Positions 26,050-29,933 of a DNA stretch of 64,000 nucleotides are shown here, piece after piece. The notes under the pieces are model-generated. The model was not told the DNA's origin, ran no database searches, and saw only the letters and a program-made list of their open reading frames with translations. Position 1 is the first letter of the stretch, and the number at the start of each line of letters is the position of its first letter. The stretch comes from a virus, in IMG/VR virus record IMGVR_UViG_3300047323_000138, positions 23,352 to 87,351 of that record; one strand, 5' to 3'. The position numbers and the translations under genes are program-made.

Positions 26050-26256
26050 GTGAATCTTAAACCAGAAGACTTAGAAATCACCACATACCCACCCTATAAA
26101 ACTGGAGGACAACATGTAGGACTTACACATAGTGGTGTTCTTATTGTGCATAAACCTACAGGATTGGGTGTTGTGTCTATTAGTGAGAGAAGTCAGTATA
26201 GGAACAAAGATAGGGCTTTAGTTATGTTGGAAATATTGGTTGAGTTGGAGCTATGA
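26050..26256 (+). CDS. Stand-alone class I release-factor GGQ domain (peptidyl-tRNA hydrolase-like)
   Basis: DLEI...GGQHV...SGVLIVHKPTGL.V...ERSQYRNK..A. Confidence 0.85.
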   Translation: MNLKPEDLEITTYPPYKTGGQHVGLTHSGVLIVHKPTGLGVVSISERSQYRNKDRALVMLEILVELEL

Positions 26257-26556: not shown

Positions 26557-27117
26557 ATGAAATACTATAGTGGAATAGGGAGCAGACAAACACCAAAAGA
26601 TATCCTAAAGCTTATGGAAGACATTGCATTCAAGCTTGCACAGAAAGGCTATATCTTACGGTCAGGCGCAGCAGGTGGTGCAGATACTGCATTTGAGACT
26701 GGTGCTAAATATTACGCTGAACAGATTGATGAACGTGTAACACTTGCTCAGTTGTATATTCCTTGGGCTAGCTTTGTTAGCTATGATGAATACTATAAAG
26801 ATTGGTATAAGGTGTTGGACAGAATGACCAAGAAAGAGGAAGCTTATCAATTAGCCTCTGAGACACACCCAGCTTGGGATAAGTGTTCTAAGGGAGCTAA
26901 AGCTCTACATGCACGTAATACGTTTCAGATACTAGGACCAAACCTTAACAATCCAAGTAGCTTTCTTATCTGTTGGGCTAAGGTAGATAAACATGGGCAA
27001 CTGAAAGGTGGTACCAGGACAGCTTGGGAGTTGGCTAAGGCTCATGGTGTTCCTTGTTTTAATTTGTACAATGAAGAAGATAAACAACGATTGATTAAAT
27101 TTGTGGAGAGTGAATGA
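26557..27117 (+). CDS. SLOG/DprA-like protein
   Basis: YSGIGSRQTP, LRSGAAGGADTAFE, ARN, GGT motifs. Confidence 0.8.
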   Translation: MKYYSGIGSRQTPKDILKLMEDIAFKLAQKGYILRSGAAGGADTAFETGAKYYAEQIDERVTLAQLYIPWASFVSYDEYYKDWYKVLDRMTKKEEAYQLASETHPAWDKCSKGAKALHARNTFQILGPNLNNPSSFLICWAKVDKHGQLKGGTRTAWELAKAHGVPCFNLYNEEDKQRLIKFVESE

Positions 27118-27347
27118 TGGAAAAGTATAAACTGACTTACGAGATTACTGAGTACGGCGGAAGTATTCAACTGCTGAGTGTTGAACCTAAATCTAATTAT
27201 GTAGAGCAATGCTTCTATGAAGGAGAGATTCTACAGCAGGTGTACTTGGATGATGACGGTGTGTATGAACTAACTGTGGTTCACGTCTTTGAAGAGGACT
27301 ACGATCACTTCGGTATTGTTAATCTAGAGAAGGTGTATGGACGTTAA
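27114..27347 (+). CDS. Hypothetical protein
   Basis: SD GGAG; overlaps neighbours. Confidence 0.6.
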   Translation: MMEKYKLTYEITEYGGSIQLLSVEPKSNYVEQCFYEGEILQQVYLDDDGVYELTVVHVFEEDYDHFGIVNLEKVYGR

Positions 27348-27891
27348 GGAACAAGCTGTAGCCCTGCGAAAGCAGGGATTAACGTATGCCCAAATATCAA
27401 GCTCCTTAAACGGGGCTTTGTCTGTTGATTGGTGTAAGAGAAATCTGAAGGGTGTAAAAGCTGTAGATAAATACACACTACTTTACGAACAATCCCTTAT
27501 ACTTTCTAAAAGACAAGAGGGTGTAACAGATAAAGAGCTTAAGGATATTGCATTCAAGGTATTAGGGACAGTTGAGAAAGGAGATATATCCAGATTGAAA
27601 GCCAAGATTAAACGGAAGAAAAATGATGACCAAAACTCGGTACTTGTTCGACCTGCATGGATGTCGCCCACCACTCCAGCAAAGAGCTTAGTTATGATGA
27701 ACGAACTATCTCATGAGTTATATGAAAATATCCAGCACCTAGTGGACATGTACATTGAGCAATACCCAGACACGGATAGAAAGAAGGCTTTAGAAGAGAT
27801 GGTGTACCTATCCAATGGATGGGCATTAAAAGAGAGTCTGGAACGTCGTATGGAAAGGAACTACAGGACAGTAGAACGTATAGAGAAGTAG
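27337..27891 (+). CDS. DNA-binding protein with N-terminal HTH
   Basis: AVALRKQGLTYAQIS...SVDWCKR. Confidence 0.65.
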   Translation: MDVKEQAVALRKQGLTYAQISSSLNGALSVDWCKRNLKGVKAVDKYTLLYEQSLILSKRQEGVTDKELKDIAFKVLGTVEKGDISRLKAKIKRKKNDDQNSVLVRPAWMSPTTPAKSLVMMNELSHELYENIQHLVDMYIEQYPDTDRKKALEEMVYLSNGWALKESLERRMERNYRTVERIEK

Positions 27892-27893
27892 CC

Positions 27894-28070
27894 TGCACTT
27901 TCTTTACTCCTATACAACACAAGAGTGCACGACCTGATTACACTGGTCTTTAGGTGCACTTTATCCGCACCTTTTGTCTACGCACTTTACTGAAAGCCTT
28001 GTAAATTAAGGGCTGTAGGTGAGTGCACTTCTTTTACTATAATATTAATACTCTCACAGTAGTGCACCTT
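27894..28070 (+). repeat. Cluster of seven (G)YGCAC(YTT) repeats, possible origin or protein-binding array
   Basis: Copies at 27894, 27925, 27954, 27966, 27981, 28023, 28062. Confidence 0.65.
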
Positions 28071-28401
28071 ACTAAATAAAATCACATGGGAAATATCCCA
28101 ACCCCTCCAGAAGGCACTTAGCTTGTATCAGTAAGTGTCTATTTCTTTGTCTAGAAAATATGGCAGTTGGTCTGTAAGCCTTTATTTATAAGGATCTTCT
28201 AGTTTCCTATAATTACCAGAGTTCTAGTTGTAGCGTTTAACAGCTTACTACCCCGTCACCTATATGTCAACCATAATATCAAAATATCTGAAGAATTCAT
28301 TAATCGGCCTGCCCTGATAGAGACAATGAATAAAATGCAATCCATGTACCAACCCCTCCATCGATAGCTATAACTCATCATCTACCGTTCCATAACGTAA
28401 C

Positions 28402-28429
28402 ACTACGCAGAACATAGCTTATGTTAAAT
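28402..28429 (+). other. dif-like XerC/XerD recombination site
   Basis: ACTACGCAGAA-CATAGC-TTATGTTAAAT: 11-6-11 geometry with a perfect canonical XerD arm. Confidence 0.8.
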
Positions 28430-28788
28430 GCTACTGAATAGACTCATCCTATCAACATACTGAGCGACTACCACACCTGTAGCTACCTTGTCAAGAACAT
28501 CTATTAGCCTACATGTATAGGGCTGGATAGTGTGTTGGTGAGGTAATGTCAAGGGTTTATTGGGAAGTTTATAGTGTAAAGGAATCGTTACGGTGTGTTA
28601 ACGCGCTCAGGAGGGCGCTATGCTTAACTTGATACGTAGTATCGACTATGCTTATGAAAGACTAAATAGTGACTAATACATCTATTTCAGTCACATTGTA
28701 GACTAGAGAGAATAAAGCTTAGGAGGAGTTTAGAAGGTTATAGGAGGGTGGTATTTGAAAGGATACATGTTGATACTCATAAACAACT

Positions 28789-28808
28789 AAGGCCCCGTGA
28801 GGGGCCTT
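28789..28808 (-). terminator. Intrinsic terminator ending the minus-strand cluster
   Basis: AAGGCCCC-N4-GGGGCCTT 20 nt after the stop at 28828. Confidence 0.75.
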
Positions 28809-28827
28809 GTAGACTTTCCTGCTTGAA

Positions 28828-29133
28828 TTACTTAGCTACAAGTAACTCTTTAGGAATGTATGCAACACCATCACATACATAAACTTGATCAAAGAACTTA
28901 GTTTCAGAGTAGCCGTAGGTGCGAACAATCTTAAAGCCTTCCACTTTAGCTGCAAAGTGCCATTTAGCAAAACCTTCCTCCTGCTGAATTGCAAACTCAT
29001 CAGCCACTACATACTCAGTCTTCACGCGTTTCTGTGCAGGAGCCACTTTCTTGATGCAAGTGTAGCCATAAGGCTTGCCATTGAAGAACTGTGGGCAGGT
29101 AACTTCAGAACCACAGCAAGTGCAAGTAATCAT
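28828..29133 (-). CDS. Zn-ribbon-containing hypothetical protein
   Basis: CTCCG...GYTC; start re-set to ATG with SD GGAG. Confidence 0.7.
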   Translation of the reverse strand: MITCTCCGSEVTCPQFFNGKPYGYTCIKKVAPAQKRVKTEYVVADEFAIQQEEGFAKWHFAAKVEGFKIVRTYGYSETKFFDQVYVCDGVAYIPKELLVAK

Positions 29134-29933
29134 GGCTAAATCTCCCGAAGAGGGTGGATCTGGATGACCCTGTCTCCCTTTCATGTTTAAATTGTAGCAC
29201 AGCTAATGGTTATGTACAGGAGAATTTGAAAGAAAATAAAGATATTTTTATTATAGACAGGTGGCGCTCATCCCTACCATTCATTGAAGACGCATATCCA
29301 CCACAATTACAATAATTCTTATAGCTTGTGATACCTTTTGTAGACAACCAGAGTAGATAAGTCATTTCTCTATTCCTATGTTTTCTGATTCGGTAGGCAC
29401 CTTATATAGATTTGTCTACCCTGTAAAGCTTTTTATTCAATTTCTTTCAAAGCTTCTCAAACCTAACAGCCGTATGCTCCAAATAATCATCTGTCATACA
29501 TAGGAATGATTTGTACATGGAAGCTCTGAATGAATGGCCTCACTAGAATTGTTTCAAGATAGAACGGATGTTAGACACATCATCAATCAGACTGTGCAGC
29601 TTCTCGATAGCTTCCCGCTCAGAGTATGAATGTATGAGTATCCACAAGTGTCCTTTGCAGTATGAGGTGTCATAATTGATGATGTACATGTTATCACCCT
29701 TTTAGAAGTAGTTATTAGTGGACGATTGTTTGCAGGCCTTTAGCATAATCAGAGGCTGGATAGCCTTCCACTTCGTCTTTCCATGTTTTGTGATATATTG
29801 GTGCTGGTTTTGATGAGCTATCTTGAAATAAGACTTTGTAGAGGACTACTAGTGAGATGATCATGACAATTTCCTTCTTGTATGTTTTGTTTCAGTAAGA
29901 TAATTATAGCTTATCTCAGAGAGCAGTCAACCT

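What the first reader, a model, noticed from the sequence alone, without database searches (positions are those of the whole stretch)
28402..28429. dif-like XerCD site in an apparently lytic phage, where transcription blocks converge
Seen: ACTACGCAGAA CATAGC TTATGTTAAAT in a ~0.9-kb non-coding gap. Established: gammaproteobacterial dif is 11-6-11 with XerD arm TTATGTTAAAT (E. coli GGTGCGCATAA TGTATA TTATGTTAAAT); plasmids and IMEX elements use such sites. The central hexamer differs from chromosomal TGTATA, which argues for self-resolution rather than simple integration. Inference: host XerCD resolves circular or multimeric phage DNA, or the site recruits XerCD/FtsK for another purpose.
Basis: partly seen in the sequence, partly recalled or inferred. 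Interest (0 to 1): 0.75.

Follow-up and report, generated by a model that had tools for sequence, protein, structure and literature searches.

The report
Host-type dif site in lytic phage
An uncultured 87-kb soil phage with no recombinase of its own keeps, in a gene-free gap, a real binding and crossover site for the bacterial XerC/XerD chromosome-resolving enzymes; related lytic phages carry the same kind of site, in E. coli phages inside the repeat at both DNA ends, so these phages probably borrow the host enzyme to join or resolve their own DNA.

Summary
It lies in a 936-bp gap where + and - gene blocks converge.

One such match is not proof: about 2.7e-4 are expected per genome, so tens are expected over the whole scan. 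Comparison settles it.
- Four relatives carry a site in the same gap. The XerD arm is 85% conserved, the XerC arm 68%, the centre 30% and the flanks 42-45%. This is the pattern of true dif sites.
- Natural dif sites have the same or nearly the same XerC arms: 10/11 with Shigella flexneri, 11/11 for L006 with Idiomarina.
- The phage and the 13 other site-bearing phages tested encode no tyrosine recombinase. None of those checked has an FtsK-gamma or XafT domain.
- No close relative of its terminase was found in 185,000 bacterial genomes.

The trait is wider. Integrase-less 80-150-kb myoviruses of the same terminase family have one such site each. All five Vequintavirinae genomes sampled have a perfect one. 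In E. coli phages both arms equal host dif (22/22) and the centre differs. In HdK5 the site lies inside the 459-bp terminal repeat. Pseudoalteromonas phage H101 copies its host genus's odd XerC arm.

The site is patchy: absent from five close relatives, Otagovirus and Ounavirinae. It therefore looks accessory.

Function is untested, and this phage's ends are unknown.

This scan has reported the same class on other phage DNA before. I found no paper describing it.

The parts
28402..28412 (+). XerC-type arm ACTACGCAGAA
   Evidence: T3, C5, G6, A10 and A11 are invariant in the five syntenic sites. It is 10/11 identical to the XerC arm ACTACGCATAA of Shigella flexneri chromosomal dif in Carnoy & Roten Table S2 (PMC2731167). 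The inner TACGCA is as in Pseudomonas syringae dif.
28413..28418 (+). Central hexamer CATAGC (crossover region)
   Evidence: It differs in every relative: GATACC, TCGGAT, TACACA, CACCCA. Mean pairwise identity is 0.30, which is near random.
28419..28429 (+). XerD-type arm TTATGTTAAAT
   Evidence: It is identical to the XerD arm of E. coli dif. It is the only exact copy in the 87-kb genome. Mean pairwise identity among the five syntenic sites is 0.85.
28346..28452 (+). Island of homology around the site (conserved block CATCGATAGCTATAACTCATCA on the XerC side, the site itself, then G-TAC)
   Evidence: This is the only part of the gap that aligns with L005, at 81% over 107 bp. L005's phage has a terminase only 39% identical to this one. 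The upstream block is shared with L005 and L006 but not with L007 or L148. Logan contigs of three soil runs from another study hold 28349-28523 at about 88% identity.
27892..28827 (.). Non-coding gap between converging gene blocks that holds the site
   Evidence: A gap of 0.6-1.4 kb is present in all six IMG/VR relatives and in L148. Site-bearing cultured phages have gaps of 1.2-2.5 kb.
28230..28242 (-). Inverted partial copy of the outer XerD arm plus flank (TGTTAAACGCTAC); significance doubtful
   Evidence: Inverted repeat I1, 12/13 with 28422-28434. My estimate is that about 0.4 such pairs are expected by chance in 1.1 kb. It is not conserved in relatives.
28789..28808 (-). Terminator hairpin that ends the minus-strand block
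   Evidence: 8-bp stem with 6 GC pairs, followed by a T-rich tail.
26557..27117 (+). DprA-like gene used as the synteny anchor (not part of the site)
   Evidence: phrog_768, E 1.7e-69. It is 71-90% identical in L002-L007.

Best explanation
The motif is a real dif-type recombination site that selection maintains for the host's XerC/XerD recombinases. It belongs to a class of such sites found once per genome in the long gene-free region of many integrase-less virulent myoviruses that share one terminase family.

Inferred mechanism. Host XerD binds the right arm and host XerC the weaker left arm. Two phage copies of the site synapse and exchange strands across the phage-specific central hexamer. 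That hexamer keeps the reaction between phage sites and away from chromosomal dif.

In cultured E. coli relatives the site lies inside the short direct terminal repeat. The most likely use is therefore to join the two ends of the injected linear DNA into a circle, or equivalently to interconvert concatemers, circles and monomers at repeat junctions.

The site is missing from several close relatives, so it is a dispensable helper rather than a core step.

Shown: the sequence, its conservation pattern, its wide distribution, the matching of host arms, the absence of any phage recombinase, and the location inside the repeat in phage HdK5.

Inferred: binding, catalysis, the purpose, and the position of the site relative to this phage's own ends.
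For: (1) Five sites were found by synteny: window, L005, L006, L007 (inverted) and L148. In these, T3, C5, G6, A10 and A11 of the XerC arm and T19, G22 and T24-T28 of the XerD arm are invariant, and the centre is unconstrained. Mean pairwise identities are XerD 0.85, XerC 0.68, centre 0.30 and flanks 0.42-0.45. Carnoy & Roten report the same profile for 161 true dif sites: the XerD arm is better conserved than the XerC arm, the inner parts are most conserved, positions 23-24 vary, and A25 is fixed (PMC2731167).

(2) The pattern TNCGYANAA-N6-TTATGTTAAAT with up to 3 mismatches gave 20 hits in about 3.5 Mb of phage genomes. The tool's reversed-pattern control gave 3.

(3) The variant XerC arms are natural ones. 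L006's ATTGCGTATAA equals the arm of Idiomarina dif. The window's arm is 10/11 to Shigella flexneri dif.

(4) Host tracking. In E. coli phage naswa both arms equal E. coli dif, 22/22. The naswa site matches one place per chromosome in 5,419 of 5,426 E. coli genomes. Pseudoalteromonas phage H101 has ACTACCTATAA, with the unusual CCTATAA that is also found in P. haloplanktis dif, ACAACCTATAA.

(5) No phage recombinase. PF00589 is absent from G000 and from 13 other site-bearing phages.

(6) Lineage. The pattern-found contigs G006-G009 carry one site each and have terminases 36-40% identical to this phage's. All 5 sampled Vequintavirinae have a perfect site, and about 121 cultured Vequintavirus records hold the region.

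(7) In HdK5, bases 1-459 equal 138870-139328 exactly, and the site lies at 168-195 and 139039-139064. Korf et al. report 458-bp terminal redundancies with ends defined by reads that stop abruptly (PMC6563267).

(8) The arms do not covary as an RNA stem would, and no consensus structure is predicted.
Against: No experiment shows XerCD binding or recombination on any of these phage sites.

The window's XerC arm has G where nearly all dif sites have T at position 9. No genome among 185,579 species carries these exact arms.

The site is absent from five close relatives (L002, L003, L004, L137, L138). It is also absent from five Otagovirus, three Ounavirinae, and single Pakpunavirus and Nankokuvirus genomes. 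It therefore cannot be essential.

Recombination at dif normally needs septal FtsK. No phage FtsK-gamma or XafT-like activator was found.

This phage's physical ends are unknown. Its 'DTR' is only a 127-bp assembler overlap, so the link to a terminal repeat rests on analogy with distant relatives whose terminases are about 35-40% identical.

Part of the 17-site logo is biased, because many of those sites were found with a pattern that fixes the arms.
Confidence: 0.5

Rival explanations
1. Multimer resolution site of the cer/psi type. The phage passes through a circular stage, either an early theta stage or a plasmid-like carrier state. XerCD turns recombination-made dimers back into monomers. 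The site is not connected with the genome ends.
For: The centre differs from dif and differs in each phage, as in plasmid Xer sites. A 55-bp conserved block lies on the XerC side, where cer and psi carry their accessory sequences. The site sits at the cumulative GC-skew maximum, as dif does at a terminus.
Against: The genome has no ParA or ParB and no lysogeny or plasmid-maintenance genes. For a phage that packages from concatemers, resolving multimers is useless or harmful. The upstream block is missing in L007 and L148, and I saw no ARG box in it. GC skew in this genome simply follows gene orientation. In HdK5 the site is in the terminal repeat.
Confidence: 0.2
2. Hidden IMEX-type attP. The phage can integrate at the host's dif through XerCD, as CTXphi, gokushoviruses and double jelly-roll vibriophages do. 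This would give a cryptic lysogenic or carrier state without an integrase.
For: Integrase-less phages that exploit XerCD are well documented (PMC4246890, PMC7062461, PMC9966536). In rV5-like phages the first two and last two central bases match host dif, TG..TA. That could allow a first strand exchange.
Against: No close terminase relative was found in 185,579 bacterial genomes. The relatives are classical virulent myoviruses. The centres differ widely between relatives, whereas dif centres are conserved within a species (PMC2731167). No repressor or lysogeny module was seen.
Confidence: 0.08
3. XerCD is recruited without recombination. The site would act as a docking or roadblock element, for example to stop FtsK, to attract topoisomerase IV for decatenation, to tether the DNA ends, or to titrate XerCD away from the host chromosome.
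For: Both arms are conserved while the centre is free. Binding alone also predicts this. FtsK is known to stop at XerCD-dif (PMC2800217). Earlier notes of this scan report such sites next to other host-factor sites (DnaA, IHF, Fur) in other phages (untested here).
Against: The exact 6-bp spacing and the AA / TTAT bases next to the cleavage points are kept, and catalysis needs these more than binding does. The evidence here cannot separate this reading from the main one.
Confidence: 0.12
4. Not a Xer site at all. It would be a chance resemblance, or an operator or promoter for a phage protein, or part of a small RNA, conserved for that reason.
For: Flanking bases are also partly conserved: the upstream block and G-TAC after the arm. 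A weak sigma70-like promoter on the minus strand overlaps the XerD arm. One such motif per 250,000 windows is expected by chance many times over.
Against: Independent lineages keep dif-consensus arms while the flanks are unrelated (mean information about 0.23 bits). The arms track host-specific dif variants. There is no Rfam hit and no consensus RNA fold. The promoter hexamers are not conserved in L005.
Confidence: 0.1

Closest known systems
Chromosomal dif with XerC/XerD/FtsK (E. coli and other Proteobacteria; Carnoy & Roten 2009, PMC2731167)
   Same: The architecture is 11-6-11. The XerD arm is identical, the XerC arm lies within the natural range, and the per-position variability profile is the same. 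The site sits in a non-coding zone where strand polarity switches.
   Different: It is on a virulent phage genome, not a chromosome. The centre is not TGTATA and differs in each phage. There is no evidence for KOPS polarity (6 motifs) or for FtsK involvement.
Plasmid multimer-resolution sites ColE1 cer and pSC101 psi
   Same: A host-XerCD site on an extrachromosomal replicon, with its own central region and a degenerate XerC arm.
   Different: cer and psi need about 160-180 bp of accessory sequence bound by PepA plus ArgR or ArcA, and cer has an 8-bp centre (own knowledge). Here only a 55-bp block is conserved, and only in three of the five syntenic sites. The centre is 6 bp, and the replicon is a lytic phage.
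IMEX elements (CTXphi, VGJphi, TLCphi, gokushovirus and DJR prophages, gonococcal island)
   Same: Phage or mobile-element genomes without an integrase that carry a dif-like site used by host XerCD.
   Different: Those are small temperate elements found integrated at dif. This is an 87-kb myovirus-type phage with a T7-like replisome. No integrated relatives were found and it has no XafT-like factor.
Phage P1 Cre/loxP cyclisation through sites in the terminal redundancy (own knowledge)
   Same: A site-specific recombination site present twice in direct orientation in the virion DNA lets the injected linear genome close into a circle without homologous recombination. HdK5 shows that geometry.
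   Different: P1 encodes its own recombinase and is a headful packager with long redundancy. Here the enzyme would be the host's and the repeat is short (458-459 bp). The geometry is not demonstrated for this phage.
dif-like sites in rV5-like (Vequintavirinae) and other virulent phages, reported earlier by this scan (e1-309443, e1-306807, e1-127633, e1-1959399, e1-5864169, e1-5865289)
   Same: The same class: one dif-type site in the long gene-free region or terminal repeat of an integrase-less lytic phage. I re-derived this independently before reading those notes.
   Different: This is a separate, uncultured soil clade whose nearest cultured relatives are Otagovirus, at about 58% identity in the primase-helicase. 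The XerC arm is weaker, the site is patchy among close relatives, and in one relative it is inverted.

Membership tests
Xer (dif-type) recombination site | Two 11-bp arms separated by a 6-bp centre | tested here: met
   The same spacing is kept in all five syntenic sites and all 17 collected phage sites.
Xer (dif-type) recombination site | XerD arm matches the proteobacterial consensus TTATGTTAAAT | tested here: met
   11/11 identical to the arm read in the E. coli chromosome.
Xer (dif-type) recombination site | XerC arm with conserved inner part (T-CG-A-AA; CGCATAA or CGTATAA) | tested here: met
   6/7 of CGCATAA, with a T-to-G change at position 9. The arm is 10/11 to the Shigella flexneri dif arm. 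Relatives have canonical CGTATAA or CGCATAA.
Xer (dif-type) recombination site | Arms under constraint and centre free between lineages | tested here: met
   Pairwise identity is XerD 0.85, XerC 0.68, centre 0.30, flanks 0.42-0.45.
Xer (dif-type) recombination site | Cooperative binding and strand exchange by XerC and XerD | not testable with these tools
   This needs EMSA or recombination assays. The host is unknown.
IMEX (integrative element exploiting Xer) | Copies found integrated at chromosomal dif, flanked by dif-like sites | tested here: not met
   No terminase relative was found in 185,579 genomes. That search detects close relatives only.
IMEX (integrative element exploiting Xer) | Centre shares bases with host dif next to a cleavage point | not testable with these tools
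   The host and its dif are unknown. The centres of relatives are all different.
Plasmid cer/psi-type resolution site | About 160-180 bp of accessory sequences on the XerC side binding PepA plus ArgR or ArcA | tested here: inconclusive
   A 55-bp block is conserved in window, L005 and L006 only. By eye there is only a half-match to an ARG box at 28328-28345, and it is not conserved in L005.
Recombination site in a terminal redundancy (P1 lox-type cyclisation geometry) | Site present in both copies of the direct terminal repeat of virion DNA | not testable with these tools
   For this phage, the record's 'DTR' is a 127-bp assembly overlap and only assembled contigs of the runs were available. 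The feature is met in the distant cultured relative HdK5.

The most novel reading that the evidence does not exclude
A broad group of strictly virulent, terminally repeated myoviruses, including this soil phage and the E. coli rV5 group, use the host's XerCD on a private-centre dif copy in their terminal repeats. This would close the injected linear genome into a circle, or cut and join concatemer junctions. It would be the first case of a lytic tailed phage relying on a host site-specific recombinase for its own genome topology. The arms would co-evolve with the dif of each host.
Probability: 0.3. Interest if true: 0.85.

Novelty: new variant of a known kind. Interest (0 to 1): 0.62.

Why it matters
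In the papers I searched, XerCD exploitation is described for plasmids and for small temperate elements: filamentous phages, microviruses, double jelly-roll phages and genomic islands. If large virulent phages also depend on it, three things follow.

1. A host housekeeping recombinase becomes a host factor, and a possible resistance determinant, for phage groups that are used in biocontrol and therapy, such as the rV5-like phages.
2. The arms of the phage site could serve as a host-prediction marker for uncultured phages. Here the arms point to a Pseudomonas-like or enterobacterial-like dif.
3. It offers an answer to how DNA with short terminal repeats is protected and circularised after injection.

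The idea can be tested directly with existing E. coli K-12 mutants and cultured rV5-like phages.

Tried and rejected
- blastn of the gap against 50,697 phage records: no match.
- Rfam on 27500-29300: only sub-threshold noise.
- RNA reading: no consensus structure, and single folds are no better than shuffles.
- Promoter reading: a weak minus-strand sigma70-like site overlaps the XerD arm, but its -35 is not conserved in L005.
- Phage-encoded partners: PF00589, FtsK_gamma (PF09397) and XafT/DUF3653 (PF12375) are absent from G000 and from the site-bearing phages tested.
- GenBank annotates the 87-aa ORF naswa_156 as 'DNA translocase FtsK'. It has no Pfam support.
- Neighbouring ORFs (27114-27347, 27337-27891, 28828-29184 and others): no Pfam family above threshold.
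- KOPS polarity: only 6 GGGNAGGG motifs in the genome, which is uninformative.
- Host inference from the tail fibre: only the N-terminal half matches Otagovirus phages, and the C-terminal hits are weak and mixed.
- Exact arms ACTACGCNGAA..TTATGTTAAAT in 185,579 genomes: none.
- Otagovirus, the nearest cultured relatives: no site in five genomes.
- Cultured relatives of the L035 region: none. The L078 region matches only Pseudomonas tolaasii phage phiPto-bp6g.
- Sequencing runs: no RNA holder is listed, and all runs are assembled contigs, so ends and depth steps cannot be read. In two soil runs the site-bearing contig has about twice the depth of neighbouring contigs (about four-fold in a third), and contigs of all three soil runs end near 28530. 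Strain mixtures explain this as well as a terminal repeat does, so I do not use it.
- The inverted partial copy at 28230-28242 is not conserved and is near chance expectation.
- Literature: no paper links Vequintavirinae or terminal repeats of lytic phages with Xer.

Full report
**Observation**

The window reads ACTACGCAGAA CATAGC TTATGTTAAAT at 28402-28429 on the + strand. The last + strand ORF ends at 27891, and the first - strand ORF, 28828-29184, ends at 28828. The motif therefore lies in a 936-bp gene-free gap. GC skew changes sign there.

The window is bases 23352-87351 of an 87,351-bp IMG/VR virus record. The record's 'direct terminal repeat' is only 127 bp, which is an assembler overlap. 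The physical ends of the DNA are therefore unknown.

The genome encodes a terminase, tail fibres, a T7-like primase-helicase, DNA polymerase I and a ribonucleotide reductase. Its nearest cultured relatives are the virulent Otagovirus phages of Pseudomonas and Pectobacterium, at about 58% identity in the primase-helicase. It has no tyrosine recombinase, ParA or ParB. No close terminase relative exists in 185,579 bacterial genomes. 'Apparently lytic' is a fair description.

**Is it more than chance?**

An exact XerD arm with at least 6/7 of the inner XerC arm at the right spacing is expected 2.65e-4 times per genome. It occurred 0 times in 300 shuffles. Over a scan of about 250,000 windows that still predicts tens of chance hits, so the single motif proves nothing.

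The comparative data decide. I fetched relatives through the neighbouring DprA-like gene, without reference to the motif. All have a similar gap. Four of them carry a dif-type site in it:
- L005: ACTACGCCGAA GATACC TTATGTTAAAT
- L006: ATTGCGTATAA TCGGAT ATTCGTTAAAT
- L007, on the other strand: CCTTCGTATAA TACACA TTATGGTAAAT
- L148: AGTTCGCATAA CACCCA TTATGTTAAAT, a perfect consensus site in a relative whose DprA is only 58% identical

Across the five sites, mean pairwise identity is 0.85 for the XerD arm, 0.68 for the XerC arm, 0.30 for the centre and 0.42-0.45 for the flanks. Carnoy & Roten describe the same profile for 161 chromosomal dif sites. In their data the XerD arm is better conserved than the XerC arm, the inner parts of both arms are most conserved, positions 23-24 vary, A25 is fixed, and the centre varies between species (PMC2731167).

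The variant XerC arms are natural ones. L006's arm equals that of Idiomarina loihiensis dif. The window's arm is 10/11 identical to the Shigella flexneri dif arm ACTACGCATAA. Its inner TACGCA also occurs in Pseudomonas syringae dif.

The two arms do not covary as an RNA stem would, and no consensus fold is predicted. Rfam finds nothing.

As an empirical null, I scanned about 3.5 Mb of phage genomes with TNCGYANAA-N6-TTATGTTAAAT at up to 3 mismatches. This gave 20 hits, against 3 for the tool's reversed-pattern control.

**A wider trait**

A degenerate pattern scan of IMG/VR returned more than 118 stretches. At the unconstrained positions these mostly showed canonical CGCATAA or CGTATAA, so they are real Xer sites. 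Many lie on small, IMEX-sized contigs.

I examined four large contigs: G006 (122 kb), G007 (99 kb), G008 (102 kb) and G009 (137 kb). They have no integrase and exactly one site each. All four turned out to have a terminase of the same family as this phage, at 36-40% identity with E-values of 1e-51 to 1e-85. That is the same distance as L005's phage.

Two phages whose terminases are only 39% identical therefore share an 84%-identical DprA gene and an 81%-identical 107-bp island centred on the site, within otherwise unalignable DNA.

The terminase family comprises classical virulent myoviruses: Ounavirinae, Otagovirus, Pakpunavirus, Vequintavirinae, Barbavirus, ICP1 and others. I scanned 18 cultured genomes:
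- All five Vequintavirinae have a perfect site: E. coli naswa and HdK5, Klebsiella P8734, Erwinia pEp_SNUABM_01 and Cronobacter GAP31.
- Pseudoalteromonas H101 has a site with one mismatch, and Rheinheimera Barba8A has one with two.
- Three Ounavirinae, Pakpunavirus, Nankokuvirus and three others have none.

About 121 cultured Vequintavirus records hold the site region. In every annotated case the site lies in a 1.2-2.5-kb gene-free region. None of these phages encodes a tyrosine recombinase, an FtsK-gamma domain or a XafT-like domain.

**Host tracking**

E. coli chromosomal dif reads GGTGCGCATAA TGTATA TTATGTTAAAT. Phage naswa reads GGTGCGCATAA TGGGTA TTATGTTAAAT. Both arms are identical and only the two middle bases of the centre differ. 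The phage site matches one place per chromosome in 5,419 of 5,426 E. coli genomes.

Pseudoalteromonas phage H101 has the arm ACTACCTATAA. It carries the unusual CCTATAA that also marks the dif of Pseudoalteromonas haloplanktis, ACAACCTATAA.

Arms that follow the host's own dif variant are hard to explain unless the host's XerC and XerD read them.

**Relation to the genome ends**

The HdK5 record (MK373780.1) has an exact 459-bp direct terminal repeat. The site lies inside it, at 168-195 and again at 139039-139064. Korf et al. report 458-bp terminal redundancies for HdK5 and EdH4, with ends defined by reads that stop abruptly (PMC6563267).

Each virion DNA of that phage therefore carries two directly repeated host-type dif sites, one at each end. 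A crossover between them would close the genome into a circle with one repeat copy and release a small end fragment. This is the geometry that Cre/loxP provides for P1 (own knowledge). The same reaction between molecules, or along a concatemer, would join or excise genome units.

**Best explanation and its limits**

I conclude with high confidence, about 0.8, that the window's motif is a genuine dif-type site maintained by selection. With moderate confidence I conclude that host XerCD acts on it in phage-with-phage reactions. The private centre would keep those reactions away from chromosomal dif.

By analogy with HdK5, end joining or concatemer processing is my preferred purpose, at about 0.3. 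It is not shown for this phage, because the ends could not be mapped: only assembled contigs of the runs were available.

Four facts count against a core role or a simple mechanism:
- The site is absent from five close relatives (L002, L003, L004, L137, L138) and from whole sister groups. It must be an accessory, frequently gained or lost module.
- The window's XerC arm has a rare G at position 9, and no bacterial genome has these exact arms.
- Recombination at dif normally needs septal FtsK, and no phage-encoded activator was found.
- KOPS motifs are too few to test for polarity.

The rivals are cer/psi-like multimer resolution, IMEX-like integration, recruitment without catalysis, and a non-Xer element. 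They are weighed in their own sections of this report.

**Novelty**

The papers I found describe Xer exploitation for plasmids, filamentous phages, gokushoviruses, double jelly-roll phages and genomic islands. None links Vequintavirinae, or the terminal repeats of lytic phages, with Xer.

After I had derived the above, the scan's own index showed that earlier agents had reported the same class on other DNA: rV5-like phages, Certrevirus, CR3-like phages, phiPMW relatives and giant phages. One such report was later re-checked, with 'seen 90/100, bold reading 10/100'.

This window adds four things:
- a separate uncultured soil clade
- the patchy, module-like distribution of the site
- an inverted copy in one relative
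- the observation that XerC arms follow host-specific dif variants

**Verdict**

This is a new variant of a known kind, a Xer site in a new type of carrier and a new position. Interest is moderately high, because the idea can be tested directly with cultured E. coli phages and existing mutants.

Noticed in passing
L148:2586-2676 and L148:3512-3603: The 3.6-kb metagenome contig that holds the perfect site ends in a 91-bp, near-100% inverted repeat that brackets the whole gap, including the site. This is either a fold-back assembly or amplification artefact, or a real invertible segment. The site is inverted in L007 relative to the other relatives.
   Followed up: partly
window 26557-27117 and 28346-28452 versus L005: The DprA-like gene (84% aa identity) and the 107-bp site island (81% nt identity) are shared with a phage whose terminase is only 39% identical. 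This region appears to move between distant phages as a module.
   Followed up: partly
window 26050-26256: A 68-aa ORF consists of a stand-alone RF-1 (GGQ) domain, PF00472, E 2.4e-14.
   Followed up: no
window 27892-28070: A run of GCAC(T)TT repeats lies directly after the 184-aa ORF 27337-27891, about 330 bp from the site (also noted as e1-6066125). It could be a protein-binding array in the same gap.
   Followed up: no
window 28093-28109 and 28344-28360: There are two copies of ATRTMCCAACCCCTCCA, 251 bp apart, and each heads a conserved module of the gap. Module A (28092-28303) is shared with L002 and L003. Module B (28346-28452), which holds the site, is shared with L005 and L006. The exact 12-mer occurs nowhere else in the window.
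   Followed up: partly
L078, L089, L077 and L152, 7-15 nt after the XerD arm: A motif (G)AATGAGAA / AATGATAA follows the XerD arm in three different phage lineages (G007, G008 and the rV5-like phages). In naswa it is duplicated and annotated as a 34-bp repeat_region. It may be a second protein-binding element.
   Followed up: no
L152:410-673 (Escherichia phage naswa, naswa_156): GenBank annotates this 87-aa ORF beside the gene-free region as 'DNA translocase FtsK'. Pfam gives no support, so the label looks spurious.
   Followed up: yes
phage records MG065644, MG065690, MG065654 and others: Eighteen records named 'Campylobacter phage' (135-143 kb) carry the rV5-type E. coli dif-like region at about 89-90% identity. 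Their host labels look doubtful.
   Followed up: no
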